Source of the DNA: Eledone cirrhosa
Lineage: Eukaryota
Assembly (NCBI GenBank): GCA_964016885.1
Contig: OZ024743.1
Coordinates: 341,682,001 to 341,746,000, forward strand
Reading direction: 5' to 3'
DNA: 64,000 bases
Within the stretch, counting starts at the first letter, position 1. Each line of letters starts with the position of its first letter. The notes below the pieces were generated by a model, which did not search any database, was not told the origin of the DNA, and was given only the letters and a program-made list of their open reading frames with translations. Below, piece by piece: positions 4,287 to 64,000 of the stretch. Both the position numbers and the translations under genes were made by a program.

Positions 4287-4325
<39 letters not shown>

Positions 4326-4364
4326 GATATTAACAAATGGAAACTATATTTATAAAACCATATC

Positions 4365-4754: not shown

Positions 4755-4810
<56 letters not shown>

Positions 4811-6324: not shown

Positions 6325-6510
6325 GGATTGGCAGTATCAGTAGAGGGTCGGACGCCATGCTTTCCAGCATAGTTACGTCCCTTTACGATCTGAGTTCAAA
6401 TCCCGCCGAGGTTGACTTAGCCTTTCATCCTTACGGGGTCGATAAAATAAAGTACCAGTAATACACTGGTTAATTGCTGGCCTTGTGCCTAAAGTAGAAA
6501 CAGTTATTAT
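6325..6510 (+). mobile_element. tRNA-derived SINE, family 1
   Basis: A-box-like TGGCAGTATCAG and B-box GAGTTCAAATCCC, then GCCTTTCATCCTTACGGGGTCGATAAAATAAAGTACCAG (resembles the MetaSINE central domain, from memory) and an ATT-rich tail. About ten copies are in the window. Confidence 0.85.
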
Positions 6511-10309: not shown

Positions 10310-10495
10310 TGGATTGGCAGTTTCGGAAGAAAGTCGGATGCCATGCTTCCCTGCATAGAGTTATTACCATTTACGGACGGAGTTCAAATCCCGCCGAGGT
10401 TATCTTTGCCTTCCATCCTTATGCGGTCGATAAAATAAAGTACCAGTAATCTACTGAGTAATTGCTGGCCTTGTGCCAAAAGTAGAAATAATTAT
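10310..10495 (+). mobile_element. SINE family 1
   Basis: Homologous to 6325-6510. Confidence 0.85.
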
Positions 10496-11288
10496 TTATA
10501 CAATATACACACCAGCTGCGTATCACCAGGATTGTTAAGAGGGATTGAATTTATCAAAAACACGCGAAGAGAACCAACGTTGAATATAGGTGAGCAATCA
10601 AGAAAGCAAATGATGCCGCTAGATGTACAAGGTGGTAATTATGGTGAAAAAGGATGTTTCCAGCTTAGGCGTAAGGCGATATATATTATTTCCCTTAAGC
10701 GTAAGAAAACATATATTGGTGTATACGTAAACCTAATACAGAGAAAGAAGTAATCACTCCAAAAGTCATACCAGTAATTAAGTAGTTTTTGCTTTAATAG
10801 ATTTGCAAAAGGTAAGTACAAAATTAGGATTAGTCAAGTTACTCAAATATAACAGAAAATTAGGAGTCGAAAACAAATTTGCTTGATTATATACGGCATG
10901 CTAAATTCTAATATCTAGCCCCAAATGCAAATCAGAAAAGTGGTGTAATATTAACGGGGTGGTGTATTATGGCTTAAGTAGTTTGTTTAATTTATCCTAC
11001 GTTAAAGCGTGGCTTTTTATATTTATATTTATTAATTATTAAATATCTCCGGGTAATTAGTGGTGTAGGTTTAGAAAAGTTATTTACGACTGTGTAGGTT
11101 CTTAACATGAATTACATAAACAAACGAGTATTCCCATGTATACTTATAAATATAGATTCATATACGCCCACGCATATCATCATATCATTACATTTATGTA
11201 TACAGTGTGTATGTTTGCATATGCATGTGAGGTTGTTAACGATTGTAGATATTAAATATGGATTTCATTTGAAAACATTGGTTTTCTT

Positions 11289-13330: not shown

Positions 13331-14627
13331 AGGGGGTGTCACTTGGAGTTACTGCAGGTTCACCCGGGAGAGCACTCGATGTTTAGGTTCACTTCTGTGA
13401 TGAGGTGTAGAGCTATACAGAGTGTAATATATTGAAAGGATAACAAGGACGATTGACTACTCCTTCATTGCATTTATTGATAGGTGACGCGCGTTTCGCC
13501 ACTGATCAGCTCAAGGTTCGATCTGTATCGATCCTACCCGACTCAATAATCGGCGGCTCGACGGACCCTTTTAAAATGCTATAAGAAAATGGAATACATG
13601 CTATGTGGTAAAGTCAGAGTTTCAAGAGTTTGACAAAATGAGTTGTTTTGATTGGTGGGAAGGATCAAGGGGATGTACTGTCCTATAGTGTATGTGGGGG
13701 TGGATGTGATGGTGAGATGTTGGTGACGGTTGGGCGATGAGATGGGCTGTGGTGTGGTGGTGGCGGGTTGGCCTTGCCCTGTAGTGTATGTGGGATGGAT
13801 GTGATGATAAGATGGTGGTTATGGTCGCTTACTGGGATGGGCTGTGGTGTGAGGTTAGAGGGTTGTCGATAGAATGGGTTATCATGTGTGGAGGTGTGGT
13901 TGTGGTGTTGTTGTTTATGGTAGTGGTGTATGTGGTGGTGCGGTGGATGTGTTGGTGGTGTCGAGTCCTTACGGAGATACATAGCTAGACGCTCTTCGTC
14001 TGACAAATACGTTGTATATATGTATACACACATATATGTATACATGCGCATATCTATTGATGTATATACACACACAACACATACACACACCCTCGCCCAC
14101 ACATATCCACACACACACACTTACACAGCCATATGCATATACACACACATGTATGGGAATGTGGGCATGTGGACACATATAGGGAGAGTGGGGGAGTATC
14201 GGTGGGGGTGGCGTAGGACAAAGATGGAGGGAAAGTGAGAGGCAATGGAGAAGGTGTCATACATATATACATACACATACATACACTCATACACACATAC
14301 GGATATGCGCACATACAAGCACACACATGTATACATAAACATACACACACACACACACACGTATACACACACATATATATACACACATACACACACACAC
14401 ACATACACTTACATGCACATATACGCACACATATACACACACATATAGATTCACTTATATACATATTTATAAATATAAGTATTAAGTTGTTAAACAAGAT
14501 TCGATGATTATGTCAAAGAATGAGTTTTACAGTAGATTGGAAGCACTCAACGAAAAAATAATTTTCAGGAGTTATTAATATTAAAATATAAGTATTAATA
14601 AAATAGATGTTCTTTTGATCAATTACA

Positions 14628-14678
14628 TTTTATTATACATATTTCGGATGTACAACAGTACGTCCTCATCAGACAAAA
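14628..14678 (-). ncRNA. Minimal type I hammerhead ribozyme in a nested pLTR (family E, starting at about 14480)
   Basis: Minus strand: TTTTGT-CTGATGA-GGACGTAC-TGTT-GTACATCC-GAAA-TATGTA-TA^ATAAAA. Confidence 0.85.
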
Positions 14679-15169
14679 TATAATGATACATGACATACCC
14701 TGAGATGTTAAATAGTTAAGATTTAATCAAGGTAGTGATTACCCGATAGCAAATTTTGCTTATATAATATCTGTGTGAGAGTGCAAAAACGTAATGAATT
14801 CATTAGAGAATGTGTGAGTAAGAAAAAACGTTGCATACTTAAAGTGTTCTAAAATTTTAAATTGTATGATACTACGATATAATATATCTAGGGAAACGTC
14901 TCATGAATTATAACAGCCACTGGAAAAATATTTATAAGGAGGGAAAGATAAAGTGTGTGTGGGGGGATTTGGGGGGTGCGAAAGTTAAACGGTTAGAATT
15001 TGGAAATATTTAATTTATAATATTAATGTTATGACTCCAGATTTCAGATTTATATATTATTTATATAAATTCGTTAAGTGTGTTATCATTTCTAATCTTC
15101 TGAATTGTGAGAATAACATTTTAAAGGATTTAGCTGGCACGTGAAGAATGAAATATTATACTGTTGATT

Positions 15170-15835
15170 AATTACCTAAATACCACAAGCTCTTCAATAG
15201 ACACACCGTAAAATTCTCTTTCTCCACAGCACCAAATCTAGGCCACACAATAGCACACACTAATAGGGCAAAAATACCAAAACACATGGTTGCTTCACAA
15301 CAAACCACCACCACAACCCAGAACGAAACCACACACACAACACAACAACCCACACATCAGACCCACACCGCATGACACCAACCGCCAACGTGCCACCACA
15401 CCGGTTACACCCAACTGCAACTGCAAAAACGGGCCGAATGCCCACTAAACGGGGAGTGCCTCGTTAAAAACATTGTTTACCGGTGTGATGTCACAGACGG
15501 CAATAAGGAGTACTCAGATATAGGGGCGACATCCACTACGTTAAAGGAGCGCTGGTATAACCACAGGAGCTCCTTTAAACATAGACTGAAACGACCCCAA
15601 ACCAGACTGGCCGATTTGATCTGGGACCTCAAGGGCAGGAATATTGAACCCCAGATCTCGTGGTCAGTGAAAAGACGCGTGGCACAAGTCCCCAGTGACA
15701 GAAACCACTGCAGATTATGCCTGGCTGAGGCGGCGGAAATAATTAAATTAAAATCCGCCATAAACTATAGGTCGGACATAATTGTCAATTGCAGACACAC
15801 CAGACTGAACACCTTTCCGCACAAACATTCGGAGG
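15170..15835 (+). pseudogene. PLE linker plus GIY-YIG fragment
   Basis: Manual translation gives KLFNRHTVKFSFSTAPN, CNCKNG and NIVYRCDV..IGATSTTLKERWYNHRSSF. ORF 15616..15969 gives CRLCLAE..NCRH. Confidence 0.85.
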
Positions 15836-17973
15836 AGGGCCATGCACTAACCATGACCCAGCATAATAATAACCACATCTGCCCCGTATCACCATCGCCC
15901 ATCTCAGCGAATTTATTAATTTTAATTTATTTTATCTTATTTTATTGTATTGCATGTAACCATTTGTAAGCCCTTATTTTGTATATCATGCCGCATACAT
16001 CACCCCCACCAAAAATCACACTAACCATGACCCACCATAATAATAACCACCTCTGCCCCGTCTTACCATCGCCCATCTCAGCGAATTTATTTTATTGTAC
16101 TGCATGTGACCATTTCTAAGCTCGTATTTTGTATATCATGCCGCATACATCACCCCCACCATAAATCACATCGCCATACACTCCTCATCCTTGCAACATT
16201 GTGTTCGATCAGTCTTCTGTGACAGGTTTTACCTTACAATCCATAGTAACATCGGACCTTGTAAATACAATGTCGATCATATCACACCATTGCCACCACC
16301 ACCACCACACCACACATCGTCATATTACTACCATACACACCCGCAACCTTATCCCCCCCCCCCATGTTCCCTCTGTCTACCCTAACCTACAACCCCACGC
16401 TAAATTCGACCCTGTAAATGTACTGTCGCGCACACACAACCACCGGCACCACTAGATGCATCCACATACTTCAACAATCATTAACATCATTAAAATCATC
16501 AACACATATCATCCCTCACTCCCAGATCGACTGTATTATATCCCCCCCCCCCCCACGTCTACCTTACCGTGTTACACACCGTAACTTCTGATTATATAAT
16601 CATTTTGTCGAACATATCACCCCAGCACCACCACCACCACCATGACCACAATACACATCGCCATACGTCCATAAACTCTTTACCCCCGCGTCCCCTATGT
16701 CACCTTTTAACCTGTAACCCATCGCACTATTCGATCCTGTATATTTTTGTAGCTCACACTCCACCACAAGACTCAACTCCATACTTTATCAACACTGCCA
16801 ACACATACCTACCCTCCCGAACCAACGCAAGTGTGTGTGTCTGTGTGTAAGCATTGTTTACATATACGGGCGTATAAATATGCGTGCGTGTATGCATATA
16901 TATGTGTGTGTATATATATATACACATATATATATATATTTATATATATGTATATAAGTGAATCTATATGTGTGTGTATATGTCTGCATATATGTGCATG
17001 TAAGTGTATGTGTGTGTGTATATATATATATATGAGTGTGTATACGTGTGTGTGTATGTGTGTATGTGTATGTTTATGTATACGTGTGTGTGCGTGTATG
17101 TGCGCATATCCGTATGTGTGTATCAGTGTATGTATGTGTATGTATATATGTATGACACCTTCTCCATTGCCTCTCATCTTCCCTCCATCTTTGTCCTACG
17201 CCACCCCCACCGACCTCTCCCACTCTCCCTATATGTGTCCACATGCCCGCATGCCCATACATGTGTGTATATATGCATATGGCTGTGTAAGTGTGTGTGT
17301 GTGGATATGTGTGGGCGAGGGTGTGTGTATGTGTTGTGTGTGTATATACATCAATATATATGCGCATGCATACATATATGTGTCTGTATACATATATACA
17401 ACGTATTTGTCAGACGAAGAGCGTCTAGCTATGTATCTCCGTAAGGACTCGACACCACCAACACATCCACCACACCACCACAAACACCACTACCATAAAC
17501 AACACCACAACCACACCCCCACACATGATAACCCATTCTATCGACAACCCTCTAACCTCACACCACAGCCCCATCCCAGTAAGCGACCATAACCACCATA
17601 TTATCATCACACCCACCCCCATATACACTACAGGGTAAGGCCAACCCACCACCACCACACCACAGCCCATCTCATCGCCCGACCGTCACCAACATCTCAC
17701 CATCACATCCATCCCCACATACACTACAGGCCAGTATATCCCATTGATCCTTCCCACCAATCAAAACAACTCATATTGTCAAACTCTTGAAACTCTGACT
17801 TTACCACATAGCATGTATTTCATTTTCTTATAGCATTTTAAAAGGGTCCGTCGAGCCGCCGATTATTGAGTCGGGTAGGATCGATACAGATCGAACCTTG
17901 AGCTGATCAGTGGCGAAACGCGCGTCACCTATCAATAAATGCAACGAAGCAATAATCAATCGTCATTGTTATC

Positions 17974-18026
<53 letters not shown>

Positions 18027-18029
<3 letters not shown>

Positions 18030-20190
18030 TAAAATATAAAAGAGAAAACACAGGTAAGCATTAAGAGAAGGATTTTATCCAGGTATTTACGACCGTTTCA
18101 CTGGTAAGTGCAACCTTATATTGCTAAACTGCAAATAGCAGCCACTCAATTATAATTGTTGTTCACTGTCAAAATTTTCAAAATATTGAGTAAGTTACTC
18201 TTGAAATAGTTCTTAATATATAGAGAAAAACATTTTTTCGAATTGTATTTACTAGTATAGAGAGAGAGGAAATTAGAATGTGATGGGAGAAACGGAATAG
18301 TATAGAGAGAGAGGAAAGGGGGTAGAGTTAGGAAGTAGAGTGACAGACTGAGATGGAGGGAGTGGTAGAGGTGGAATGATTCCTTGATCAGTTTTGATAT
18401 GTAGACTTCATATCGGGGAATGTAGTGAGTTAAAGAGAATTAAATTGATCATAGTGGGAGGGATGGATAGAGAGAGAGAGAGAGAGTGAGGGGGGGGGGG
18501 GGGAGATATAAAGAGATAAATATATATATAAAAAATAAAGATAAAGATAATAATTACAAAAATAAAAGCAAAGAAGTGGGAGAAAGAAGAAAAGAAAAGG
18601 TAGCCAAAAAGGGGAGGGAAGGAAGGAAGAAAACGAAGAAATAGAACAGCAATTTAAGCTGAGGGGCGGGATATAGGTATTGGTTTTGTGGGTAATGAAA
18701 AGGGTTTAGATACAACAAGAGCGTATAAAGTCTAAGTATATGCAGTTTGTCATTTGGTAGTAAGAGGTTAAGGGTTCGATTTGCACTTGTAGTGCGCAAA
18801 CTTCTCTTTGAGTCTATGGTTACAATAAATTGATCTTTCGATTTTATTGTTGAGTAACTTATTCTTCGAACTCAAAATGTGGAACAGCTCAAGGTCACAT
18901 AATCGACAGCTTCTCATACCACACCGATATGGGGGCGCGTTCGATAATTTGTTCCACTTCAGGGTGTATTGATGGTTACTTTCCCTCAGTTGCCAGGTCT
19001 TGTTTGTAAGGGTAGTTACATAACGATGCTGGGAATGTTTCATTGCGTAACGGTGTGTATACCAACGGGCTTTAAATGTATTCCACGTCGCTCCGATGCA
19101 ATATCATTCTGGTTGTCTGATTCAACTGAGCATTGGTAAACCAGGTTAGACTGCATACATTCATTATGTAATGGACAGGTTTCAGGTAGGTGGCAGTTAC
19201 AACCTCGAGCTGTTCCACATTTTGAGTTCGAAGAATAAGTTACTCAACAATAAAATCGAAAGATCAATTTATTGTAACCATAGACTCAAAGAGAAGTTTT
19301 CGCACTACAAATGCAAATCGAACCCTTAACCTCTTACTACCAACTGACAAACTGCATATACTTAGACTTTATACCCTCTTGTTGTATCTAAACCCTTTTA
19401 ATTACCCACAAACACCAATACCTATATCCCTCCCCTCTCTTTCATTCCTCTTCTATTTCTTCGTTTTCTTTCTTCCTTCACTCCCCTTTTTGGCTATCTT
19501 TTCTTTTCTTCTTTCTGCCCCCGTCTTTTCTTTTATTTTTGTAATTATTATCTTTATCTTTATTTTTTATATATATATTTATCTCTTTATATCTCCCCTC
19601 TCTCTCTCTTTCTCTCTCTATCCATCCCTCCCACTATGATCAATTTAATTCTCTTTAACTCACTACATTCCACGACATGTCTACATATCAAACCTGATCA
19701 AAGAACCCTTCCACCTCTACCCCTCCCTCCATCTCAGTTTGTCACTCTACTTCCTAACTCTACCCCCTTCCTCTCTCTCTATACTATTCCGTTTGTCCCC
19801 TCACATTCTAAGTTCCTCTCTCTATATACTAGTAAATACAATTCTAAAAAATGTTTTTCTCTATATATTAAGAACTATTTCAAAGTAACTTACTCACTAT
19901 TTTGAACATTTGGACTGTGAACAACAATTATAATTGAGTGGCTGCTATTTGCAGTTTAGCAATATAAGGTTGCACTTACCAATGAAACGGTCGTAAATAG
20001 CTGGATAAAATACTTCTCTTAATGCTTACCTGTGTTTTCTCTTTTATATTTTATACTTTATACTCCAAGATTGAACGGAATTCTTCCAAACTTGTGGAGT
20101 TACCCCTAACCGTACGTTGAAACCATCCATGAAACTGGCTTTCTTAACCACGAACTGGATCACAATAAGCAATTTTCTGCTTCCCTAACA
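18027..20190. mobile_element. Truncated PLE: minus-strand GIY-YIG end with inverted pLTR arms (18027-18890 and 19207-20057) and a tail to about 20190
   Basis: ORF 18768..19043 has CRLCDLELFHIL..LLNNKIE..CNHR. The two arms of about 850 bp are reverse complements. Confidence 0.92.
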
Positions 20191-21746: not shown

Positions 21747-21950
21747 ACATTACAATAATTGTTTCTACCTTTGGCACAAGGCCAGCAATTACCCAGTACA
21801 TTACTGGTACTTTATTTTATCGACCCCGCAAGGATGAAAGGCAAAGTCAACCTCGGCGGGATTTGAACTCAGATCGTAAAGGGACGTAACTATGCTGGAA
21901 AGCATGGCGTCCGACCCTCTACCGATACTGCCAACCCACATTACAATAAT
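21747..21950 (-). mobile_element. SINE family 1 with a 13-bp target-site duplication
   Basis: Full SINE flanked by ACATTACAATAAT at 21747-21759 and 21938-21950. An older degraded copy lies at about 21540-21690. Confidence 0.9.
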
Positions 21951-25564: not shown

Positions 25565-25755
25565 GGTGGATTAGAAGTATCGCTAGAGGGTCGGACGCCT
25601 TGCTTTGATGCATAGAGTTCCGACCCTTTCCAATCTGAGTTCAAATCCGCCGAGATTAATCTTGCCTTTCATCCTTACGGGCTCGATAAAATAAAGTACC
25701 AGTAATGCACTGGTTAATTGCTGGCCTTGTGCCTAAAGTAGAAACAATTATTATG
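25565..25755 (+). mobile_element. SINE family 1
   Basis: Homologous to 6325-6510. Confidence 0.85.
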
Positions 25756-29453: not shown

Positions 29454-29509
<56 letters not shown>

Positions 29510-29512
<3 letters not shown>

Positions 29513-30051
29513 AAAGAATAGAGATGTAACACACAAGTTGTGATATATTGGTAAACGGAAAAGAAAATGCTGACAAATTGTTCACAGTGAAAAATAGTTT
29601 AATTAGGAATAAGTGAGAATTAGTAATAGTATTGGTTAGTATTCAGTTTTGGTTTTTAGTTTTACCGGTTGCGCATTTGTAATGCTTTACAAAAATAATT
29701 TTGAGATAGAGCGTCCGTGATGTTTGCTCTGGTCTGATTAGTTTTGGGAATTCTACCTGTTTTTATGTTAAAAAAGTGGCTCCAGCGGTATTAAAATAAG
29801 TTTTGCGCCAATTCGTGTTGCAAAAATTCTTGTGGTCAAAACAATTTTGATTTGTCGGTAGAGGTCATGTGAATGTAAAAAATAGATTTTGCGCCAAATG
29901 TAGGTTTGTGTCGGCTGACTGAGAAATAAGTCTTTCACAACAAATATGTGTGTGCGTGTAGTAGTAGTAAAGAGGGTCGTTGTTGTGATAATGGTCAGCA
30001 GGGATGTGTGAGCGAACCGCAGCCTTTTGACAGTTCAAATGCCTATTAAGA

Positions 30052-30092
<41 letters not shown>

Positions 30093-31890
30093 CAGAGTAA
30101 TTCGTGGTAGAGGGATGGTCAGTAGGAATGTGTCTGTAATTGTGTGGGGGATATTTTAACATGTTAAAAGCTATTTTTCAGCTCTTGTCTTACACGGAGA
30201 AGTGTGTGTGTGTGTGTGTGTATGTCTCTTTGTATGTTAATGTACGCGTGTGTATGTGTATGTGTATATATATGTGTGTGTGTCTGTGAGAGAATGTGTG
30301 TGTGTGTGGGTGTGTGGATGGACCAGTATTTATTTCTGGTAAAATGGTGTACATTATTCGATATTTTCAGTAAAATCGATTCTCTCAATTGAACATCAAA
30401 CACTTTAATAATAAAAGGTGTGAAATGATATATAGTATTGGCATAATACCAAGGTGTGTGTAAGTGTGTCCAGATTGTACGTAGTGCAAGGGGGATCCAT
30501 TAGGCCTTGCCGTATTGGAATACCTGTGCACAAATATGTATCTGGAGTGTGTCCAGATTGAACGTACTGCAAGGGGAATTCATTAGGTCTTGCCGTATTG
30601 GAATACCTGTGCACAAATATGTATGTGCCCATCAGTGTGCAATGCATGTGTGCGTTTATGTATGTGTGTGTGTCGGCATGTTTATATCTATAGACATCAA
30701 AAGGTATGCAAATTTGTGTATATTTGTGTTGCATCATAGAACATGTGTGTTTACGTATGTAATTGTGTTTATATGTGGGTAGAGATGTATGCTGATGTAG
30801 GTATGTATGTTGACGTGTGTATGTTGTGGGTTCGTCTTAGGGCGAAGTGTTTAGACGGAGTCCGTATTTGTTAATAAAATAAGATTCCTTGCTGATGCGT
30901 TGGGTGTGGGTGGCATTATCTTTAAATTTGTAGAGGGAAAAGATTCTGAAGTTGGGATGATTTTGGGCGGCACAGGTATCAATGTGTTCACTCAGTGGTA
31001 TTTTCCTGTATTCCCGTATTTTAATTTGAGATCTATGGACAGTCAGACGTTGGCGGAGGCTATTTTTGGTCTGGCCTATGTATTGTTCTCGACAACCTGA
31101 GCAAGTTAATACATATATTAGATTTTCTGATGCGCATGTGAAATTGTGTTTTACTATAAAACGTTGTCCTTCTTTGAAATAGAATTCCGAACCCTCTATT
31201 AGGTTTATGCAAATGCCACATTTGGGTCTATCGCATTTTTTTACTGTGGGTTTCGTTGTTGTGGTTGGCAGTACTTTGGCATGTGTTAGGATGTTTTTCA
31301 TTAACTTAGATTGTTTTTTGCTCTTTATGATATCGTGTGTTCGTAGGATTTGGTTCATACTGTGGTCCTTTTTCAACACAGGGATGTTCTGGAGGATGGT
31401 GTCAAAGGCCTCATTGTTGAGGGGGTTGTGTGTGGAGATGTATGGATGAGCTTTTAGTTTCGGTTGATTTACTTTAGGGTGTCTAAGGTCCTGGGTACTG
31501 AGTTTTAGGGCACGTTGGATTCCATTGTCAATTAGTGATGCAGGGTAGTCCTTACCTATGAGTGTGTCCTTTAGTTCTTGTAGCCGTAAGTAGCAGGTGT
31601 TTTTATTGGAGACTATAGTACAGATTCTCTTGGCTAAGTTGTAGGGAATATTAATTTTAACGTGTCTAGGGTGGCAAGAGTTGAAAGGAAGATATTGCTT
31701 GGAGTCTGTGGGCTTGTAGTATATGTCTGTTTCTATTTTTTTGTTATGGATATTAATGAGGATGTCGAGGAAGTCGAGTTGTCGATGGCTGTATTCCATC
31801 GTGAAGTTAATATTCGTGTTGAGCCCATTTATAAGAGTGTGAAATTCATTAAGTTTCTCGATGACCATCCTTCTACCACGAATTACTCTG

Positions 31891-31957
<67 letters not shown>

Positions 31958-32513
31958 CACGCATACACACACACATACACACACATACACACACACGCAC
32001 ACACACACACACACTTGTCTTAATAGGCATTTGAACTGTCAAGAGGCTGCGGTTCGCCCACACATCCCTGCTGACCATTATCACAACAACGAACCTCTTT
32101 ACTACTACTACACACACATATTTGTTGTGAAAGACTTATTTCTCAGTCAGCCGACACAAACCTACATTTGGCGCAAAATCAATTTTTTACATTCACATGA
32201 CCTCTACCGACAAATTAAAATTGTTTTGACCACAAGAATTTTTGCAACACGAATTGGCGCAAAACTTATTTTAATACCGCTGGAGCCACTTTTTTAACAT
32301 AAAAACAGGTAGAATTCCCAAAACTAATCAGATCAGAGCAAACATCACGGACGCTCTATCTCAAAATTATTTTTGTAAAGCATTAGAAATGCGCAACCGG
32401 TAAAACTAAAAACCAAAACTGAATACTAACCAATACTATTACTAATTCTCACTTATTCCTAATTAAACTATTTTTCACTGTGAACAATTTGTCAGCATTT
32501 TCTATTCCGTTTA

Positions 32514-32520
<7 letters not shown>
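29510..32520 (-). mobile_element. 5'-truncated PLE with an inverted upstream pLTR (arms 29543-30121 and 31862-32520)
   Basis: The arms are reverse complements and enclose the RT-EN reading frame; both ends abut (TA)n. Confidence 0.92.
30837..31860 (-). CDS. PLE polyprotein C-terminal part (RT end/thumb, Cys linker, GIY-YIG endonuclease); uninterrupted but 5'-truncated
   Basis: INFTME..LDFLDI..TDIYYKPTDSKQYL..SCHP, KKCDRPKCGIC, NLIYVLTCSGCREQYIGQT..LRQRLTVH. The first ~85 aa of the listed ORF are read-through of the inverted pLTR. Confidence 0.9.
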
Positions 32521-32554
<34 letters not shown>

Positions 32555-35436: not shown

Positions 35437-35560
35437 GGAAAAAATGAAACGAAATTTGCATATCGAGTGGGTTAACCCACTCGATATGCAAATTGGGCTA
35501 CTCAGCCCTTAATATGCATAAGATAAGTATATACGTTCAACAATCTGGGAGGAAGGTATA

Positions 35561-35601
35561 CGTTGCTGACGATAGCTAATAAGCTTGAAACTAGTACAGC
35601 G
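35561..35601 (+). ncRNA. Minimal type I hammerhead ribozyme
   Basis: CGTTG-CTGACGA-TAGCT-AATA-AGCTT-GAAA-CTAG-TA^CAGCG. Confidence 0.9.
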
Positions 35602-35984
35602 TTCCTTTGTCAGTGTTGAACAAACGAGCAACGATGGTTGCTAGACACTACGGCTTAATACGGGATGTTTGTTTACAAACACACCGAGCATTATAATAAA
35701 TGTTCGGTGAATCCAAACGTACATATATATATATGTGTGCATGTATGTATATATATATATACATACTACTGTACGTCTGTATACATATATGTATGTACGT
35801 ATACATACTTATATTTAAGTAACAGCCGTACTAAGAGTGGGAAATGTAATTTCGTTTCATTTTTTCCGTTTATCGTTTTCGGTGCACCCGGCCGATTAAC
35901 TCACTCCATATGCAAATTGGGCTACTCAGCCGTTAATATGCATTAGGTAAGTATATACGTTCAACAATCTGGCTCGAATGTATA

Positions 35985-36025
35985 CGTTGCTGACGATAGC
36001 TAATAAGCTTGAAACTAGTACAGCG
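35985..36025 (+). ncRNA. Minimal type I hammerhead ribozyme
   Basis: Identical core. Helix I extends through GTTCAACA..CTGGC / GCCAG-TGTTGAAC. Confidence 0.9.
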
Positions 36026-36406
36026 TGCCTTTGCCAGTGTTGAACAAACGAGCAACGATGGTTGCTAGACACTACGGCTTAATACGGGATGTTTGTTTAC
36101 AAACACACCGAGCATTATAATAAATGTTCGGTGAATCCAAACGTACATATATATATATGTGTGCATGTATGTATATATATATACATACTACTGTACGTCT
36201 GTATACATATATGTATGTACGTATACATACTTATATTTAAGTAACAGCCGTACTAAGAGTGGGAAATGCAATTTCGTTTCATTTTTTCCGTTTATCGTTT
36301 TCGGTGCACCCGGCCGATTAACTCACTCCATATGCAAATTGGGCTACTCAGCCGTTAATATGCATTAGGTAAGTATATACGTTCAACAATCTGGCTCGAA
36401 GGTATA

Positions 36407-36447
36407 CGTTGCTGACGATAGCTAATAAGCTTGAAACTAGTACAGCG
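36407..36447 (+). ncRNA. Minimal type I hammerhead ribozyme
   Basis: Identical core with the long bulged helix I. Confidence 0.9.
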
Positions 36448-36645
36448 TGCCTTTGCCAGTGTTGAACAAACGAGCAACGATGGTTGCTAGACACTACGGC
36501 TTAATACGGGATATTTGTTTATGAACACACCGAGCATTATAATAAATGTTCAGTGAATCCATACGTACATATATATATGTCTGCATGTATGTATATATAC
36601 ATAGTACTGTACGTCTGTATACATATATGTATGTACGTGTACATA

Positions 36646-36703
<58 letters not shown>

Positions 36704-44310: not shown

Positions 44311-44919
44311 TGTTTTTCAAGGTACAGCGTGTAGAAACTCCAATGCTAGTTTTCTTGGAGTCAGAATTAGAGGTTAATAAACAGACAGATCCTTCAAGGA
44401 CTTCAAATGTTAGGTCATTAACAAATCACATACAATAAAAAACTCTTAACCAATCGGACGCAAGAGATGTTGGCATTCTAAGATCACTCCCTCAGTGAAT
44501 AAGTGTTTTATCTTTATAGACACACCCCTTCAACTCTCTTTCCCTCACATATGGTATCTACATCCCAACTATATTAACCCCATCCCATCTTTATCACCCA
44601 TCCAACATGTATATCCCTGCTTTTATGTTCCCATATATCTTTCGGTTTACTTATCTCTCTTTTATTATATTGTCCATCATACTATACTATCCATCACCAT
44701 ATTATTCTTTCATCCTAACGTATGTATACTTATATCTATATATATATATATATTTTTTATATGTATTTTAACATTTTTATTTTCTTTATATATTTATTTC
44801 CTTATTATTTTATTTTTCAATTGTTATTTTATCTGAATGTTATCTGGTTGTTTCAAATCTCACTACTCTTTTCGTATCACTATTTTTCCTGTTAATCTTT
44901 CCTGTCATTATCTTACTTG

Positions 44920-45106
44920 AATTGGCAGTATCGGTAGAGGGTCGGGCGCCATGCTTCGACGCATAGAGTTACGGCCCTTGCCATTCTGAGTTCAAATCCC
45001 GCCGAGGTTAACTTTGCCTTTCATCCTTACGGGGTCGATAAAATATAGTACCAGTAATGTACTGAGTAATTGCTGGCCTTGTGCCAAAAAGTAGAAACAA
45101 TTATTA
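44920..45106 (+). mobile_element. SINE family 1
   Basis: Homologous to 6325-6510. Confidence 0.85.
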
Positions 45107-54049: not shown

Positions 54050-54542
54050 TTAAAGAGTTAAACAAGATTCAATGAGTACATCAAATAATAAGTTTTACAG
54101 TAGATTGGAAGCACTCTACAGGGAAAAATATTTTCCAGAGTTATTAATATTAAAATACAAATATTAATAAAATAGATGTTCTTTTGATCAATTAAATTTT
54201 ATTATACATATTTCAGACGTACAACAGTACATCCTCATCTGACAAAATATAATGATACATTTAACATCTCAGGGGGGTGGATTGGCAGTATCGGTAGAGA
54301 GTCGGACACCATGCTTTGAAGCATAGAGTTAAGTCCCGCCGAGATTAACTTTGCCTTTCATCCTTACGGGGTCGATAAAATAAAGTACCAGTAATGTACT
54401 GGATATGTTGCTGGCCTTGTGCCTAAAATAGACACAATTATTTTTGTCTGATGAGGATGTACTGTTGTACCTCTGATATATGTATAATAAAATTTAATTG
54501 ATCAAAAGAACATCTATTTTATTAATATTTGTATTTTAATAT
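54050..54542. mobile_element. Fold-back pLTR (family E) with a SINE (54277-54440) at its centre
   Basis: 54146-54247 and 54441-54542 are inverted and homologous to 14480-14710. The HHR cores are mutated (CAGATGA in one, GATA in the other). Confidence 0.8.
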
Positions 54543-54561: not shown

Positions 54562-54962
54562 TTTAAAAAGATAGAGGTGTGACACACGATTTGTGATATA
54601 TTAGTAAAAAGGAAACGAAAATGCTGACAAATTTATCCCAGTGAAAAATAGTTTAATTAGGAATAACTATAAATTAGTAATAAGTATTAGTAATAAGTAT
54701 AAATTAGTAATAAGTATTTTTGCTCTAATCAGATTAGAGCAAAAATCACGAACACTCTATCTCAAAATTATTTTTGAAAAGCATAAGAAATGCGCAACCG
54801 GTAAAAACTTAAAACTAAAACTGAATACGAACTAATACTTATTACTAATTTATACTTATTCCTAATTAAACTATTCTTCACTGGGAAAAATGTGTCAGCA
54901 TTTTCTTTTCCTTTTTACTGATATATGACAACTCGTGTGTCACACCTCTATTTTTTTAAAAT
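54562..54962. mobile_element. Miniature fold-back of the 29.5/32.5-kb pLTR family
   Basis: GAAAATGCTGACA...AATTAGGAATAA and its reverse complement; central TTTTGCTCTAATCAGATTAGAGCAAAA. Confidence 0.8.
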
Positions 54963-54973
54963 ATATATATATA

Positions 54974-56380
54974 TGAATAAAGTTAATATATCTGAGGGTA
55001 CAAGGTACCCCCAGAAATATATATAGGTTGTCTATGATTCAAGGAGGTTCTATGGTAATAATTTGATATACCAGAACTTAATATCAAGATAAGCAGAACA
55101 AGCAAAATTCAACCAATTTTTCAAAATAAATCAAAAATAATTTACAATTAAAATTAATCAAAATTAAAAAATATAATATAAATATTTACCTATTCAAATA
55201 GCCCTTACTGTACAGTTTCACTTTGCAAAACATGAGATATCACATGGATATTAATGGAAAAACAAAGATCATCAGAGAAGCATTTTCCTTTCCTAGGGTT
55301 AAAAACCTCAGGAACGATAAAATATATGACCTCGTCTCCAACTGACACGAGTCTAAAGGTCGTAAAAGTGACCCGTATGTTCGCTGGTGTGAAGTGAAGG
55401 CGGGAAATCGTAGACTTGTTGTCTATAGTCGCCACTAAAAAAAATAGCAGCTAATTAGAACGACAGATTTGTTCTCTACATAACGGAGAATAATGAATAA
55501 AGTTAATATATCTGAGGGTACAAGGTACCCCCAGAAATACATAGGTTGTCTATGATTCAAGGTGGTTCTATGGTAATAATTTGATATACCAGAACTTAAT
55601 ATCAAGATAAGCAGAACAAGCAAAATTCAACCAATTTTTCAAAATAAATCTAGGAAAGGAAAATGCTTCTCTGATGATCTTTGTTTTTCCATTGATATCC
55701 ATGTGATATCTAATGTTTTGCAAAGTGAAACTGTACAGTAAGGGCTATTTGAATAAGTAAATATTTATATTATATTTTTTAATTTTGATCAATTTTAATT
55801 GTAAATTAATTTTGATTTATTTTGAAAAATTGGTTGAATTTTGCTTGTCTGCATATCTTGATATTAAGTTCTGGTATATCAAATTATTACCATAGAACCA
55901 CCTTGAATCATAGACAACCTATGTATTTCTGGGGGTACCTTATACCCTCAGATATATTAACTTTATTCATTATTCTCCGTTATGTAGAGAACAAATCTGT
56001 CGTTCTGTCTAGCTGCTATTTTTTTAGTGGCAACTATAGACAACAAGTCTACGATTTCCCACCTTCACTTCACACCAGCGAACATACGGGTCACTTTTAC
56101 GACCTTTAGACTCGTGTCAGTTGGAGACGAGGTCATATATTTTATCGTTCCTGAGGTTTTTAACCCTAGGAAAGGAAAATGCTTCTCTGATGATCTTTGT
56201 TTTTCCATTAATATCCATGTGATATCTCATGTTTTGCAAAGTGAAACTGTACAGTAAGGGCTATTTGAATAGGTAAATATTTATATTATATTTTTTAATT
56301 TTGATTAATTTTAATTGTAAATTAATTTTGATTTATTTGGAAAAATTGGTTGAATTTTGCTTGTTCTGCTTATCTTGATA
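54974..56380. mobile_element. Non-coding 516-521-bp unit as two head-to-head partial tandem arrays, with hammerheads
   Basis: About 1.3 units on the minus strand (54974-55650) and 1.4 on the plus strand (55650-56380). ORFs 55205..55435(-) and 56027..56257(+) are near-identical. Confidence 0.85.
55665..55745 (+). ncRNA. Type I hammerhead ribozyme with an extended helix II (copies at 56181-56261 + and 55201-55281 -)
   Basis: GCTTCT-CTGATGA-TCTTTG-[CATTGATATC..GATATCTAATG hairpin]-CAAAGT-GAAA-CTGTACAG-TA^AGGGC; loop III is a perfect palindrome. Confidence 0.75.
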
Positions 56381-56842
56381 TATATATATATATGTATATA
56401 TACATGTATGTATGTGTTTCTAAAATGAATAAAAATGTCGTGTTTCAATAATTAAAAACACACACCATAATGAAAGTTCTGCGATAAATTCCGAGCTATT
56501 AATAATATAAATTCAAGAGCGAATTAGATATATTAGAATATATCAAACAATATACAGGAGATATTTCGCAAAAAATGTAAGTGCATATCAACTAGAAATG
56601 AGCAATATAGACAGTTTAACAATAAAATAAGCAAACGGTGCATGCTGAACACCAAATAATTATTTTACTCTCTCATACATAATACTTTCATGGCTATAGA
56701 ATTATGTTTCTCTTTCGAATCGTGAAGATCATAAGGTAAGTAGGTGCAGTAGTTAGAGAGGGCTAACTAAATATGAACTCACACCATTAAACAAATCTAA
56801 GGTCTGGCCAATAACACATGGAGTTAAGAAATAACACCACGT

Positions 56843-57315
56843 TGACGAATACCAATAGTATGAAACAGAGATCTGTCAGCTTATCTCCCTTGTTTGTTGA
56901 AAAAAGAAATAAGTAACATAGTCGCTACTTTAAAATGATAGCGTAAGGTCTTCAAAATGTTTTAAATTAAGTATACAGTGTATTGCCAAATATGCGATAG
57001 ATCTCTGTTTCATATATACATCGCTATTTCAGAGCACCAATTCTAATTTTCAATTTTTGCTGGACCGGCAACCGCTCTGTATAATCAGTTCCTGATTATT
57101 ACTGAAATTCTATAAGAATCCAACATTTATAATTTTCAACAAACAAGGGGAGTGCTAGGCTCTGACGAATACCAACAGTATGAAACAGAGATCTGTCAGC
57201 TCATCTCCGTCTGTTTGTTGAAAAAAGAAGTAAGTGACATAGTCACTACTTTAAAACAATAGCGTAAGGTCTTCAAAATGTTTTTAATCAAGCATACAGT
57301 GTATTGCCAAATATA
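56843..57315 (+). mobile_element. Non-coding ~320-bp unit, about 1.5 tandem copies with hammerheads; retrozyme-like
   Basis: TGACGAATACCAA(T/C)AGTATGAAACAGAGATCTGTCAGCT occurs at 56843 and 57163; the element ends in (TA)n. Confidence 0.8.
57133..57224 (+). ncRNA. Type I hammerhead ribozyme with a long helix I
   Basis: GGCT-CTGACGA-ATAC-CAACA-GTAT-GAAA-CAGA-GA-TCTG-TC^AGCT, closed by TTTTCAACAAACA/TGTTTGTTGAAAA. Confidence 0.9.
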
Positions 57316-58108: not shown

Positions 58109-58914
58109 TTATCAAACTATCAGAATAAAAGATTACAGTTAAAAATGCAATTAAAAAAACAACGAAGTCAGAAAAAATCATAGTCAGAAACATGTAATGT
58201 TAGTTGTTTGTGTTTCTTGGAGAAAACTGAAGTTTATAGTGAAAATCATGGTGATATTTGTATTAAAGCTTTTCCTTTAAGAAAACCTTTAACGCAACTA
58301 ACACTATTTGCGTGTGTGTTGTATTGCTATAAATACCCAGAAGATAAGAGAGAATGCAACATATGAGACGCGTTGTAACGCATTATATTATGAATTAATC
58401 TACCTCAAAATTGTCATTGCACGATATATGTTTTATCGCTGTAAGTTTGGGAACTTGACTGACGCGAAATCCTTTAAAGTTCGTTCTGGTAATGACAATA
58501 ATGATGCAATATTAGTGCGTCATCATTATTGTCTTTGGAACAGGTAATAGAACGTTCAGGTTCACCACTACTGGAGATTTTCTGACATGGAAAAGTTTTA
58601 CTCTTTGAATTCTGAAGCCATAATGGACAAGTCTTTCACTTGAATCTGTTCTAACCACAAATAAAATAACCTCGAAATTTTCTCCTATTTCTCCTATCTA
58701 TCATTCACTTGCTACCTCGAGATTTCCCTTCTGCATTGTTGTGGCTTTCTAAACTCCGTATTTTACACATTTCAATATGCTTCAAGCAAACTTTAACACC
58801 CTCATATATATATATATATATAACGAAGGAAATGTGGTAAGGAACCAGGTGGACCATAACGCACCAAAGTACTCAATACTTAGGGTAGTAGAGTGGGTAA
58901 TAGAAACGAGTAGG

Positions 58915-59010
58915 ACCCCGACGGCTGAGCTCAAGCCGTTTCGACGGCTAATTCTGGACTAAATGAAAATGTTTATCTTGGTATTTGAAATGCCGAGCTT
59001 CTCAGGGGGT
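58915..59010 (-). ncRNA. Hammerhead-like motif in the 3' pLTR (twin at 62722-62817); non-canonical core
   Basis: Minus strand: ACCCC-CTGAGAA-GCTCGGC..[~40 nt]..GCCGTC-GAAA-CGGCT-TGAGCTC-AGCCG-TC^GGGGT. Confidence 0.6.
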
Positions 59011-59655
59011 AATTCCATATATGGTAAAAGTGATTGTCACAAGGATTGGTCAAAAGTTTGTTGTTGAGACATAATAAATCTATCAAAGCAATTTGTGGAG
59101 GGAAGGCGTAGCTGAACCTGCCAGTAGAAGAAAGAGGGAGAGGGGGTGGAGGAAACCCAGTCGTGGTTGATAGTGCCAACCACGGCTGGGCAGGAAGTCA
59201 AAGAAGATACTAGGGAGGGGAGGGGGAGGAAGTCGAAACAATAAGTAAAACAATATGGGGTAAATATATAGAATAATACCGGGAGTGTTAAAAAACAATT
59301 AAGTGTAAAGTAAAAAAACAATTTCTGGTTACTATAACCTAAGGACAGCTATCAAGTCTCTCACTGGTACTGCTAGACTAATGAAAGGTTTACTAGGTGG
59401 GACGGAATTATAATGAGACCCTTTTAAGAGGTATAAGTAAACAACCGAATATATCTTACGGTGACGGGTCAACAAGTGGGGGGGGGGGGGGCAAAATACT
59501 AAAGAAACTACCAAGAAATAATAAATCAGAGTCCCGAGACAAGTACGAAATAAAAGTTTCTACCCCAGGCACAAGGCCAGCAACCACGCATTGCCAAAAA
59601 AATATAAACTAATACGAAATAATAATTCAGAATCCCGAAAAACAATACTAATACT

Positions 59656-59837
59656 TGTTTCTACTTTAGGCACAAGGCCAGCAATTACCCAGTGCATTAC
59701 TGGTACTTTATTTTATCGACCCCGTAAGGATGAAAGGCAAAGTCAACCTCGGCGGGATTTGAACTCAGATCGTAAAGGGACGTAACTATGCTTGAAAGCA
59801 TGGCGTCCGACCCTCTACCGATACTGCCAATCCACCG
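59656..59837 (-). mobile_element. SINE family 1 inserted in the 3' pLTR only
   Basis: Absent from the 5' pLTR, where the empty site reads AATACTATCTCT at about 63448. Flanked by ACT/ACT. Confidence 0.92.
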
Positions 59838-60399
59838 ACTATCTCTAAGGGTGCCGCCACGCTACAAAAATTCTAGTGCAAACTACATAAATGCTCGTAC
59901 GGAGTATATGTAAAATTTGATACGGAAAATTAATTCAGAATCCCCCCCCCCCCCCTAAAAAAAATTAAAATAATTAAATAAATAGATAAATATTGATATA
60001 CGAGAAATTAAAGCAAAGATACCACTAAAAAATATAGAAAGCACGGGAAAGGTGCGGCCATCGGATAAGAAGGCTAGTATCCGGGGTCTAACACATCTGC
60101 TATAAAAAGCGGAGTCGGCCAAATCTATCATAGATTAGGGGAAGGGGGTGGGGGTACTGAGGTTACAAGGGACCGAGGGGCTGCCTCGGGTGGGCGAGAA
60201 AGTAAAAGGACGAAGACAAAGAAAGAGGACTGGGGTGGAAGGACTAGGGAGGGATGGGGGAAGAATGAAATATAGAGGAAGTGATAAAAAGATATAGAAG
60301 AAGATATTAGGTCTACCTTTGCAAGCAGGGATTACCCGATACAAAATCGGCAAGTGGGGTGTTATAGCCCTAGTCTACCCCTCCCGGGTCATTATGGGG

Positions 60400-62536
60400 T
60401 TTGAGGGCAAGGTAAGTCCTATGCAATCGATGTTTACATGCAGTTACCAGTTCATCTATCTTGTTATAGGAGTTGGTCCGTCGAGAACAGCATTTGTAAA
60501 GTTTCCTCCGAGCATAAATTGCACGGACGGCATCCTCCCGTGTAAGAGTTGGCTCTGGACAGGAAGCTCCAAGTGAGATCATAGGTAATAATGTTATCCT
60601 TGAGGTCCCATATGTGGCCCGAATGTGTAGTGGCGTGACTAAACGCCAGGCCGGGTTTCGGAAGGTATGTCTGTGTTGGTATAGCCGGGTCTTGAAGTCA
60701 CATGCGGTTAATCCTATATAGGCTTTGTTGGAGGCGTCCGTCCTCACGTTGCACTGGTAGATCACATTACGATCTCTGCGTCTGTTGTCGAGGGGGCAAA
60801 TGGATCCATCAGGACAGTTGCACCTCCTGGTCGGCTCTCCACTGCTATTTCGGTTATTTCTTCCATGGGGGTTAATTTTTTTGTTATTAGAGGGGACGAT
60901 GTTTTGTGCAAAGTTTGGTGTGGTGCTGTAGGAGAGTTTGATGGTATTTTTTGTTAATTATGTTGTGGTAGCGGTGTTGTAGTGGCAAGTGTCTTTCAAT
61001 GAGCCTAAAGAAGATTTTCCCGATAGGAGTTGTCACCTCGGCGTTGTGGGGAGGATTGAACCATGTTACGTTGCGTGAACGGTGGTGTCGCCTGCTAGTT
61101 CCGCTAATAGAAGCTCAACAGTAGGATATTTCCTCCCGGAAATCACTCCGCATGAGGGCCTGGTTGTAGTAAGGCGCATGTTCCTCGAATATCTGCTCAT
61201 TAGCTGACAAATGAGATATGCGGAGGGAGATGTTTTTAACCAGGTTATTTGTGATGTTCCTAGGATGGTTTGGCCGGCGGTAGATGTAGTGTAGGTTGTC
61301 GTTAGGTTTCCTGTATGGGTAGTACATATCATTATCGAGATCAAGGGTAACATCCAGGAAGTTAACTCGGGTCAGGTACGTTTATAGGGTTATTTTAAAT
61401 CCCCAGACGCGGAAGAAGCTGATTAATTGTTTACGGACCCGATCTGTACTACTGGGGTTGTACCCTTTAAGGGTAAGGAGCCCATCATCACGGTACAATC
61501 CACCGCCGAATGCAGGAAACAAATCGGTGAGTTTGGCTATTAGGAATAATCCTATAAGATCTGTGACCTCAGCCGAATCCGTCGCGCCCATGCTGACGTC
61601 GAAGGGTGAGTCGGGAGCTCTCTTTATCCATTTGGAGTTGTCGAAGAGTAAGACTGTCTTCCTGGCGTGGAGGATGATGTTTCTTTCCTGGTCGGTGATG
61701 GGCACAAGTGTTTCGGCGAAGTCCAAGGCAGCCGTAAGTAGCGGTAAGGTGATTGAAGCATAGTAACTCTCTATATCAAACTGGATGAATTTAGTGTCTC
61801 GTTTTTCCTCCATATTGCTGAACCATGAGATCACTTCCTGGGTATTGATCCATAGGCTAAGTCTGGCGTGTTGCTTAACTTTTGGTATCACGCGGTCTAG
61901 GATTTTTTTGCTGATTCTCCCTATGTCGAACTTCGTTGGGTTTATAAGCCTGATAGAAGGTTTACGGTCGAAATCGGATTTGTGGTCCTTCAGTGTGAAG
62001 TAGGGTGTCCGTGGGTCTAGTGGTTCCGACGCGGTCGGCGACCCCGAGGCTGGAGGTAATTTGTTGCCATCTCGATTTATGTCCTCGATGCATGAGTGGT
62101 TAGCCTTTTTATAGGTGGAGTTTAGGCTGCTCCTGATCAGTGTGTGGTATCTGTCGGGGTTGACAAAGTAGAGGTTACTAGTTTTATCCGAGTGCACCAT
62201 GATGTCGTTGGTGTTATCGTACTCTGTTAAGTTGCTACAGAGTTTTTGTAGGAATCGGTTGTGTCTGGGTTTGAATTTAATGTTCTTGACCAGTTGGAAA
62301 AGGTCATTCTCGAAGGGTGAGAGAATAGGGTTCGGAGGGGGTGATTTGTAGGTAATAAATCCGAATCTCTCCTTGATACCGAAGTCCTGATTCTCGCAAT
62401 ATCTGTCGTAGAAAAAAGTTCTCCATCTACGTCTTTTCGCAAATGGATCGATTTTTTGCGTGAGCATCCGAAGGTAAAGTTTTTTCGGTGGGACTGGGAT
62501 TTTCTTGGTAGAGAAGTCGGTGTTGTGTTTTCGCAT
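60400..62536 (-). pseudogene. PLE RT-endonuclease ORF with several frameshifts
   Basis: MRKHNTDFSTKKIP..SDKTSNLY..TLKDHK..RLINPTK..FDIESYYASI..FDVSMGATDSAEV..GLYRDDGL, then YRKPND..NHP, WFNPP and IYQCNV..YIGLTACDFKTRLYQH in shifted frames. Confidence 0.93.
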
Positions 62537-63555
62537 GGTGCGGGTGAAAGTACTTGAGCTTAGCGGAAAAGTCTGGATACGGCGTGATAGGGTCGGAAAG
62601 TGCTCTACTACGGGAATAGGAGCTGGATAACAAAGGAAATGTGGTAAGGAACCAGGTGGACCATAACACACCAAAGTACTCAATACTTAGGGTAGTAGAG
62701 TGGGTAATAGAAACGAGTAGGACCCCGACGGCTGAGCTCAAGCCGTTTCGACTGCTAATTCTGGACTAAATGAAAATGTTTATCCTGGTATTTGAAATGC
62801 CGAGCTTCTCAGGGGGTAATTCCATATATGGTAAAAGTGATTGTCACAAGGATTGGTCAAAAGTTTGTTGTTGAGACATAATAATTCTATCAAAGCAATT
62901 TGTGGAGGGAAGGCGTAGCTGAACCTGCCAGTAGAAGAAAAAGGGAGAGGGGGTGGAGGAAACCCAGTCGTGGTTGATAGTGCCAACCACGGCTGGGCAG
63001 GAGGTCAAAGAAGATACTAGGGAGGGGAGGGGGAGGAAGTCGAAACAATAAGTAAAACAATATGGGGTAAATATATAGAAAAATACCGGGAGTGTTAAAA
63101 AACAATTAAGTGTAAAGTAAAAAACAATTTCTGGTTACTATAACCTAAGGACAGCTATCAAGTCTCTCACTGGTACTGCTAGACTAATGAAAGGTTTACT
63201 AGGTGGGGCGGAATTATAATGAGACCCTTTTAAGAGGTATAAGTAAGCAACCGAATATATCTTACGGTGACGGGTCAACAAGTGGGGGGTCAAAATACTA
63301 AAGAAACTACCACGAAATAATAAATCAGAGTCCGAGACCAGTAGGAAATAAAAGTTTCTACCCCAGGCACAAGGCCTGCAACCACCCAGTGCCAACAAAA
63401 TATAAACTAATACGAAATAATAATTCAGAATCCCGAAAAACAATACTAATACTATCTCTAAGGGTGCCGCCACGCTACAAAAATTCTAGTGCAAACTACA
63501 TAAATGCTCGTACGAAGTATATGTACAATTTGGTACGGAAAATTAATTCAGAATC

Positions 63556-64000
63556 AATACCCAGGAAGTGATGTCATGGTTCAGCAATATGGAGGAAAAA
63601 CGAGACAGTAAATTCATCCAGTTTGGCGGAACCAGCAGGCGACACCGCCACTCACGCAACGTAACATGGTTCAATCCTCCCCACAATGCCGACGTGACAA
63701 CTCCTGTCGGGAAAATCTTCTTTAGGCTCATTGAAAAACACATCCCACTACAACACCGCTACCACAACATGATTAACAAAAATACCATCAAACTCTCCTA
63801 CAGCGCACCACACCAAACTTTGCACAAAACATCTTCTCCTCTAATAACAAAAAACTCAACCCCCATGGAAGAAATAACCGAAATAGCAGTGGAGAGCCGA
63901 CTAGGAGGGCAACTGTCCTGATGGATCCCTTTGCCCCTCGACAACAGATGCAGAGATCGTAATGTGATCTAGCAGTGCAACGTGAGGACGGACACCTCCA
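63556..64000 (+). mobile_element. Inverted, internally deleted second copy of the family A coding region (runs off the window)
   Basis: 63556-63625 is the reverse complement of about 61777-61847 and is joined to the reverse complement of about 61103 downward (WFSNMEEKRDSKFIQF|GGTSRRH..WFNPP). Confidence 0.9.

What the first reader, a model, noticed from the sequence alone, without database searches (positions are those of the whole stretch)
54974..56380. Third HHR repeat family (516-521 bp) in head-to-head tandem arrays
Seen: three near-identical HHRs, two on the plus strand 516 nt apart and one on the minus strand. Each has a perfect palindromic loop III (CTGTACAG), a U.U pair at the base of helix II and a long hairpin extension. 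The plus array begins about 15 nt upstream of a ribozyme. Inference: a multimeric cDNA with PLE-type inversion; transcription through the locus would give both long dsRNA and self-cleaved monomers.
Basis: partly seen in the sequence, partly recalled or inferred. Interest (0 to 1): 0.7.

Follow-up and report, generated by a model that had tools for sequence, protein, structure and literature searches.

The report
Hammerhead repeat with Penelope-type inversion
A 516-base non-coding repeat carrying a self-cutting hammerhead RNA motif sits in a TA microsatellite as two back-to-back pieces, the usual footprint of Penelope-type jumping genes, so it is a new example of a known kind of parasitic 'retrozyme' repeat rather than a new system.

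Summary
Observation confirmed: three type I hammerheads (two +, 516 nt apart; one −), each with palindromic helix III, a U·U at the base of helix II and a long helix II; shuffles give 0.05 such motifs per 64 kb. The 'arrays' are only 1.3-1.4 units per arm, joined 5'-to-5' at 55650 with a 1-nt overlap, both outer ends in (TA)n. Public DNA runs show an abundant family with head-to-tail 516-bp joints; the unit is non-coding. This is a non-LTR retrozyme-type repeat (non-autonomous Penelope-like derivative), probably of an octopod, inserted with the textbook PLE shape; Hydra- and Neptune-like PLE fragments and other hammerhead families with the same shape lie in this window. Cleavage, expression and the locus junction itself remain untested. 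Known kind; modest interest.

The parts
54973..55650 (-). Inverted arm, 678 nt: unit positions 165-516 (M0, 55650-55297) then 1-324 (M1, 55296-54973); 3' end 233 nt past the cleavage site
55196..55285 (-). Type I hammerhead (M1), C3 at 55275, predicted cleavage after 55206 on the minus strand
55650..55650 (.). Head-to-head (5'-to-5') junction; one C shared by both arms; no fold-back palindrome
55650..56381 (+). Direct arm, 732 nt: one full unit (P1, 55650-56165) and 216 nt of a second (P2); 3' end 125 nt past the second cleavage site
55661..55750 (+). Type I hammerhead 1, C3 at 55671, predicted cleavage after 55740
56177..56266 (+). Type I hammerhead 2, C3 at 56187, predicted cleavage after 56256
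55741..56256 (+). Predicted cleaved monomer, 516 nt, 32% G+C, non-coding, more self-paired than shuffles (z -3.4)
56150..56170 (+). Small hairpin whose 3' arm contains the unit position at which the direct arm is 5'-truncated (possible RT stall point; weak inference)
54961..54972 (.). Left (TA)n target remnant, continuing into a MITE-like neighbour (54562-54960)
56382..56402 (.). Right (TA)n target remnant

Best explanation
The locus is one insertion of a non-autonomous, hammerhead-bearing tandem repeat (non-LTR retrozyme type) made by the reverse transcriptase/GIY-YIG endonuclease of a Penelope-like element (PLE). Shown: the anatomy, the non-coding 516-bp unit, an abundant family with head-to-tail joints, PLE coding fragments in the same window. 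Inferred: (1) source arrays are transcribed, probably by read-through; (2) the weak ribozymes cut slowly, best as a double hammerhead in which the two palindromes pair, giving 516-nt monomers that may be circularised; (3) a PLE protein nicks both strands of a (TA)n target and starts reverse transcription internally on uncleaved multimer (or circle), once 125 nt and once 233 nt 3' of a cleavage site; (4) each cDNA runs through intact cleavage sites for 1.3-1.4 units and the two cDNA ends join through a 1-nt overlap, giving the head-to-head form; (5) this copy is probably a poor source of monomers, because read-through RNA folds into a long hairpin, and a possible source of dsRNA/small RNA against its family.
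For: Motifs far above chance. Both 3' ends abut (TA)n, which covers 4.6% of the window. On 4 of 6 listed runs, 355 and 353 contigs (X1, X2, one sample) and 265 and 232 reads (X4, X5) were laid; all 29 bins are covered in X1 and X2 and the joint from unit end to unit start has summed depth 1032-1817 against 6-13 for the thinnest listed contigs (the tool warns that depth is no copy number). Longest stop-free frame in the doubled monomer 97 codons; best tblastn E 0.097 with 124 long PLE homologues. Family variants keep pairing: helix II T-G becomes C-G (55684) or T-A (55720); the two central palindrome bases change together TA to AT in 15 of 26 reads (X4) and 8 of 24 (X5), with equal counts at both places. 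Palindrome pairs between copies at -15.4 kcal/mol and not within a 14-mer; in the plus arm the double hammerhead lies 7.1 kcal/mol above the MFE against 17.2 for two monomeric folds. Eleven PLE coding fragments in the window, one with GIY-YIG and one near-full ORF with RWR, DKT and CxCX5C motifs as described for the (TA)n-targeting Hydra clade (PMC8557442 section 11). Another hammerhead family in the window shows the same head-to-head shape twice, with (TA)n at the outer ends. A purified PLE nicks and extends both strands, prefers AT-rich DNA, starts internally 3' of its hammerhead and uses uncleaved RNA (PMC11167929 parts 1-2).
Against: No cleavage, RNA or circle was observed. No DNA similarity between the unit and the 3' regions or pLTR of any PLE in the window (12 regions, best z 2.5), so the partner is not identified. 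No target-site duplication or empty site can be read in (TA)n. The window's own junction is absent from the runs laid, and those runs differ from all window copies at some places (55746, 56001), so they are a relative or another subfamily. Most contig depth there has U, not A, at the cleavage position (55740; 70% and 87%), and at 55724 an A>C variant in 30-40% of contig depth would break a helix II pair unless compensated in one of 41 rows not shown. The palindrome co-change is probably one evolutionary event. Only 1 of 9 Xenopus retrozyme dimers cleaved in vitro (bioRxiv 2026.07.22.740005 part 3), and minimal PLE hammerheads are weak (PMC4209133 part 2).
Confidence: 0.75

Rival explanations
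1. The unit is the terminal repeat (pLTR/3' region, itself tandem) of an autonomous PLE, and this locus is a heavily 5'-truncated insertion that never reached the ORF.
For: PLE insertions are mostly 5'-truncated, often with an inverted copy; dual minimal hammerheads 100-700 bp apart on opposite strands were attributed to truncated PLEs in Schistosoma (PMC4209133 part 1); the cores here are about 400 bp apart.
Against: The unit joins end-to-start in high-depth contigs, has no ORF or PLE protein similarity, and only 1-2% of laid contigs run on into unlike sequence (most pieces are short, and 104 loose ends were not shown).
Confidence: 0.15
2. An old retrozyme-derived satellite copy was rearranged after insertion by DNA-level events (replication template switch, inverted duplication, gene conversion), with no second priming event.
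For: The outer parts of the arms are 99% complementary over 363 nt while the inner parts differ more; private changes cluster in the first 412 nt of the plus arm (9 of 15 assigned events, p about 0.01 with a boundary chosen after the fact, 0.06 for the whole P1 copy).
Against: Neither arm holds enough sequence to template the other in one step (minus arm runs 108 nt further 3'; plus arm is longer than any copy from the minus arm); both ends lie in (TA)n; the same shape recurs in another hammerhead family and in a coding PLE fragment in this window.
Confidence: 0.07
3. The inversion is an assembly or library artefact (chimeric or fold-back read).
For: The junction was not seen in the 4 runs laid; such structures are known to trouble assemblies.
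Against: Arms differ at 2-4% of sites with copy-specific changes, have different lengths and end cleanly in (TA)n; X2 holds a different opposite-strand joint in the family (55696/56087, one contig, depth 32).
Confidence: 0.03

Closest known systems
Animal non-LTR retrozymes (Cervera & de la Pena 2020, PMC7229834; Li, Clavereau & Pollet 2026, bioRxiv 10.64898/2026.07.22.740005)
   Same: Non-coding, low-GC tandem unit with one type I hammerhead per unit; axolotl HHR_Amex2 likewise has a 2-bp helix III with tetraloop and a U-U at the base of helix II and works better as a dimer; PLE co-occurrence.
   Different: Unit longer than the 150-450 bp of the 2020 paper but inside the 51-972 bp of the 2026 preprint; unusually long helix II; head-to-head inversion and (TA)n target are not mentioned in word searches of either text; RNA and circles not shown here; no cephalopod case found in searches.
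Endonuclease-positive Penelope-like elements, Hydra and Neptune clades, and their pLTR hammerheads (PMC8557442, PMC4209133, PMC3846280, PMC11167929)
   Same: Partial tandem plus inverted 5'-truncated copy, head-to-head; (TA)n target; hammerhead with palindromic short helix III; 3' end roughly 100-200 nt past the cleavage site.
   Different: No RT or GIY-YIG coding sequence; no detectable similarity to local pLTRs; the junction lacks the palindrome seen in Adineta Penelope inversions; end offset between arms is 108 nt, not a 30-40-nt tail.
Newt/axolotl satellite 2 and double-hammerhead motifs
   Same: Palindromic loop III allowing two copies to pair into an active dimer.
   Different: Helix III here has two more Watson-Crick pairs than the single-pair amphibian type; no octamer or tRNA-type promoter box found in the unit (consensus motifs recalled).

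Membership tests
Type I hammerhead ribozyme | Core CUGANGA / GAAA / NUH with helices I-III, helix I open | tested here: met
   GUA triplet; 10.1-11.1 is U-U instead of G-C
Type I hammerhead ribozyme | Rfam model match | tested here: not met
   the long helix II and short helix III depart from the models
Type I hammerhead ribozyme | Self-cleavage at the predicted site | not testable with these tools
   no assay; no RNA run held the stretch
Non-LTR retrozyme | Head-to-tail tandem unit of a few hundred bp, one hammerhead per unit, at least two consecutive ribozymes | tested here: met
   plus arm; family joints
Non-LTR retrozyme | Non-coding, G+C below 50% | tested here: met
   32% G+C, longest frame 97 codons; no PLE protein match
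Non-LTR retrozyme | Multicopy family in the genome | tested here: met
   in a coded organism whose copies differ a few percent from the window's; the window's own genome is not held
Non-LTR retrozyme | Self-paired monomer | tested here: met
   z -3.43, 0 of 100 shuffles as stable; 60% paired as a circle
Non-LTR retrozyme | Expressed as linear and circular monomer RNA | not testable with these tools
   no RNA holder listed
Non-LTR retrozyme | Sequence relationship to the pLTR of a PLE | tested here: inconclusive
   no match to 8 PLE 3'/pLTR regions in the window; rest of the genome unavailable
Autonomous Penelope-like element | RT plus GIY-YIG ORF between pLTRs | tested here: not met
Autonomous Penelope-like element | Partial tandem with inverted 5'-truncated copy; AT-rich or (TA)n target | tested here: met
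Autonomous Penelope-like element | Target-site duplication or 30-40-nt tail | tested here: inconclusive
   target is (TA)n; ends differ by 108 nt

The most novel reading that the evidence does not exclude
The locus and its neighbours record how animal retrozymes move: a PLE dimer primes both strands of a (TA)n target at internal sites about 120-230 nt past the hammerhead, on linear multimers or by jumping between non-identical monomers rather than by rolling round one circle (the proximal plus copy carries an excess of private changes), and head-to-head insertions are self-silencing hairpins that feed small RNA against their own family. Several unrelated hammerhead families share this geometry within 64 kb of a probable octopod genome, which would make it a tractable natural dataset for the PLE-retrozyme link.
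Probability: 0.3. Interest if true: 0.55.

Novelty: new member of a known kind. Interest (0 to 1): 0.3.

Why it matters
Retrozymes are proposed to borrow PLE enzymes on grounds of co-occurrence and pLTR similarity; insertion anatomy of this kind is an independent line of support and extends them to a probable cephalopod. It also gives a compact test of double-hammerhead cleavage and of whether inverted insertions silence the family. None of this overturns current views.

Tried and rejected
No whole genome held, so no genome-wide survey. Rfam: nothing. Sequencing runs: no RNA holder listed. Sharp read ends at 55784 and 55882 in X4/X5 looked like element boundaries but fall on AATT sites in RAD libraries where 81% of laid reads run on unlike, so rejected as enzyme/ligation artefacts; the loose ends at 56028 are read the same way from their consensus. 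The motif pattern found 0 stretches in metagenome and viral contigs. No earlier scan note matched by sequence or place. No octamer, A box or B box in the unit; 12 T-runs on the sense strand make Pol III transcription unlikely (motifs recalled). No tRNA gene called. Simple fold-back self-priming rejected (no junction palindrome; neither arm can template the other). Rolling-circle copying of a single circle is disfavoured but not excluded (p 0.003-0.13 depending on how two unassigned changes and the boundary are treated). bioRxiv supplements were not open; family tables there could include similar cases, though the preprint sampled no mollusc by word search.

Full report
Observation. A descriptor scan of the window finds three copies of one type I hammerhead with C3 at +55671, +56187 and -55275 and cleavage after 55740, 56256 and 55206. 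Each has the palindrome CTGTACAG as helix III and loop, U opposite U at the base of helix II, six pairs and a long extension, and a 5-bp helix I with a bulged U. The generic scan gives 10 motifs in the window against a mean of 0.05 in 100 shuffles. Rfam misses them.

Anatomy. Numbering the unit from 55650, the plus arm (732 nt) is units 1-516 then 1-216; the minus arm (678 nt) is 165-516 then 1-324. The arms meet 5'-to-5' and share one base. Both outer ends run into (TA)n, 125 and 233 nt past the last cleavage site. The monomer is 32% G+C, has no frame above 97 codons, no match to 124 long PLE proteins (best E 0.097) and folds better than 100 of 100 shuffles.

Family. No genome is held. Six public runs of one coded organism were listed, three holding 26-30% of the words, none on record as RNA. 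Four were laid on 55650-56165. The whole unit is covered in the two contig sets (one sample), with summed depth of hundreds to thousands, and the end-to-start joint is present at depth 1032-1817 and in 4 and 2 raw reads, so head-to-tail organisation is a family trait. Among the 40 variant rows shown (41 hidden), none falls in the core boxes; two helix II changes keep a pair, one would break one, the cleavage base is often U, and the two central palindrome bases change together while staying palindromic (15 of 26 and 8 of 24 reads; phase inferred from equal counts). One other opposite-strand joint occurs (one contig). The window's own junction is not seen, and these runs differ from all window copies at 55746 and 56001, so they speak for the family, not the locus. 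Sharp read ends in the RAD runs lie on AATT sites and were discarded.

Context. The window holds 11 PLE coding fragments. The one at 30840-32135 has a GIY-YIG domain and its best named homologue is from Argonauta hians at 53% identity, which suggests an octopod host (inference). The near-full ORF at 60400-62638 shows RWR, DKT and CxCX5C motifs, matching the description of the Hydra clade, which inserts in (TA)n and carries hammerheads (PMC8557442 section 11). Three other hammerhead families lie in the window; one forms head-to-head pairs with (TA)n outer ends at 4317-4760 and 54050-54542. For 7 of 8 terminal ribozymes a (TA)5 run starts within 250 nt of the cleavage site, against 25% of random positions; these are not independent, one value is an internal AT run (true end 205 nt) and one has no run within 600 nt. 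The unit shows no significant DNA similarity to 12 local PLE ends or other hammerhead repeats.

Mechanism. Published PLE insertions are partial tandems often with an inverted 5'-truncated copy (PMC8557442 passages), most often head-to-head (PMC3846280 passages); opposite-strand hammerhead pairs 100-700 bp apart were noted in Schistosoma (PMC4209133 parts 1-2). A purified PLE nicks and extends both strands of AT-rich DNA, starts internally (about 85-130 nt past its hammerhead cut by my arithmetic) and prefers uncleaved RNA (PMC11167929 parts 1-2). This fits two primings at the two (TA)n ends, cDNAs that cross intact cleavage sites, and joining by a 1-nt overlap. Simple fold-back is excluded because neither arm can template the other and the junction has no palindrome. 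The first plus copy has 9 of 15 assigned private changes, six of its alleles nearly absent from the family data: a hint of a mosaic template, p 0.003-0.13 depending on treatment. In the plus arm alone the double hammerhead is the cheapest active fold (7.1 kcal/mol above the MFE; 9.4 and 13.4 for single copies). In a read-through RNA of the whole locus the second ribozyme is buried in a long duplex (141 kcal/mol to free it; 566 for the dimer), while the first, in the loop, costs 6.3. So dsRNA and monomers are alternatives. All of this paragraph beyond the sequence facts is inference.

Comparison and novelty. It works like, and meets the testable criteria of, an animal non-LTR retrozyme (PMC7229834 passages and sections 13, 14, 17; bioRxiv 2026.07.22.740005 parts 1-3 of 5 and word search); expression and cleavage are untested. 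It is not an autonomous PLE. Searches for cephalopod retrozymes or octopus hammerhead repeats found none described, only a count of 235 hammerheads in the giant squid (PMC6962438 passages), and the listing for retrozyme with head-to-head or inverted showed no paper on this shape among the 15 best of 3,534. Two earlier scan notes report similar PLE-type insertion of non-coding repeats in other genomes (unchecked).

Verdict. Real, well-formed, ordinary in kind: a new retrozyme family member with a PLE-type inversion. Interest 0.3.

Noticed in passing
window 35441-36647: 422-bp tandem array (2.8 units) with three type I hammerheads, palindromic loop CTAG, (TA)n at both ends; each unit has an octamer-like 8-mer (label recalled) about 80 nt before the core.
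   Followed up: partly
window 4317-4760, 14460-14700, 54050-54542: Another hammerhead family (helix III TATGTA) in head-to-head pairs with (TA)n outer ends; the 4467-4525 junction is a near-perfect fold-back palindrome; the 54253-54437 junction is interrupted by a ~190-bp dispersed repeat.
   Followed up: partly
window 56790-57315: 320-bp partial tandem with a fourth hammerhead type (core at 57162, degenerate copy near 56843), ending 118 nt past the cleavage site in (TA)n.
   Followed up: partly
window 58820-64000: Near-full Hydra-like PLE (frameshifted ORF 60400-62638, minus strand) between 836-bp direct repeats, with an inverted truncated copy at 63556-64000; no hammerhead found in its repeats by my scans.
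   Followed up: partly
window 1-1496: 565-bp tandem array (at least 2.6 units, 96-98% alike) next to a PLE fragment and a short (TA)n; no hammerhead detected; could hold another ribozyme class or none.
   Followed up: no
window 30840-32135: Neptune-like PLE 3' half with GIY-YIG domain, inside a 548-bp inverted repeat.
   Followed up: partly
window 18021-20062 and 13427-17985: Long inverted repeats (877 and 1061 bp) around PLE endonuclease fragments, one outer end of each at (TA)n.
   Followed up: no
window 6323-6509, 10310-10496, 21747-21939, 25565-25753, 44918-45106, 54276-54442, 59642-59836: About ten copies of a ~190-bp SINE-like repeat; ARAGORN calls no tRNA.
   Followed up: no
window 54562-54960: MITE-like element with ~130-bp inverted ends between (TA)n runs, related to 29472-29741 and 32324-32522.
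   Followed up: no
window 20369 and 51169: Two lone hammerhead-like matches (a U3-A8 core variant on +, a weak one on -); may be chance or decayed copies.
   Followed up: no
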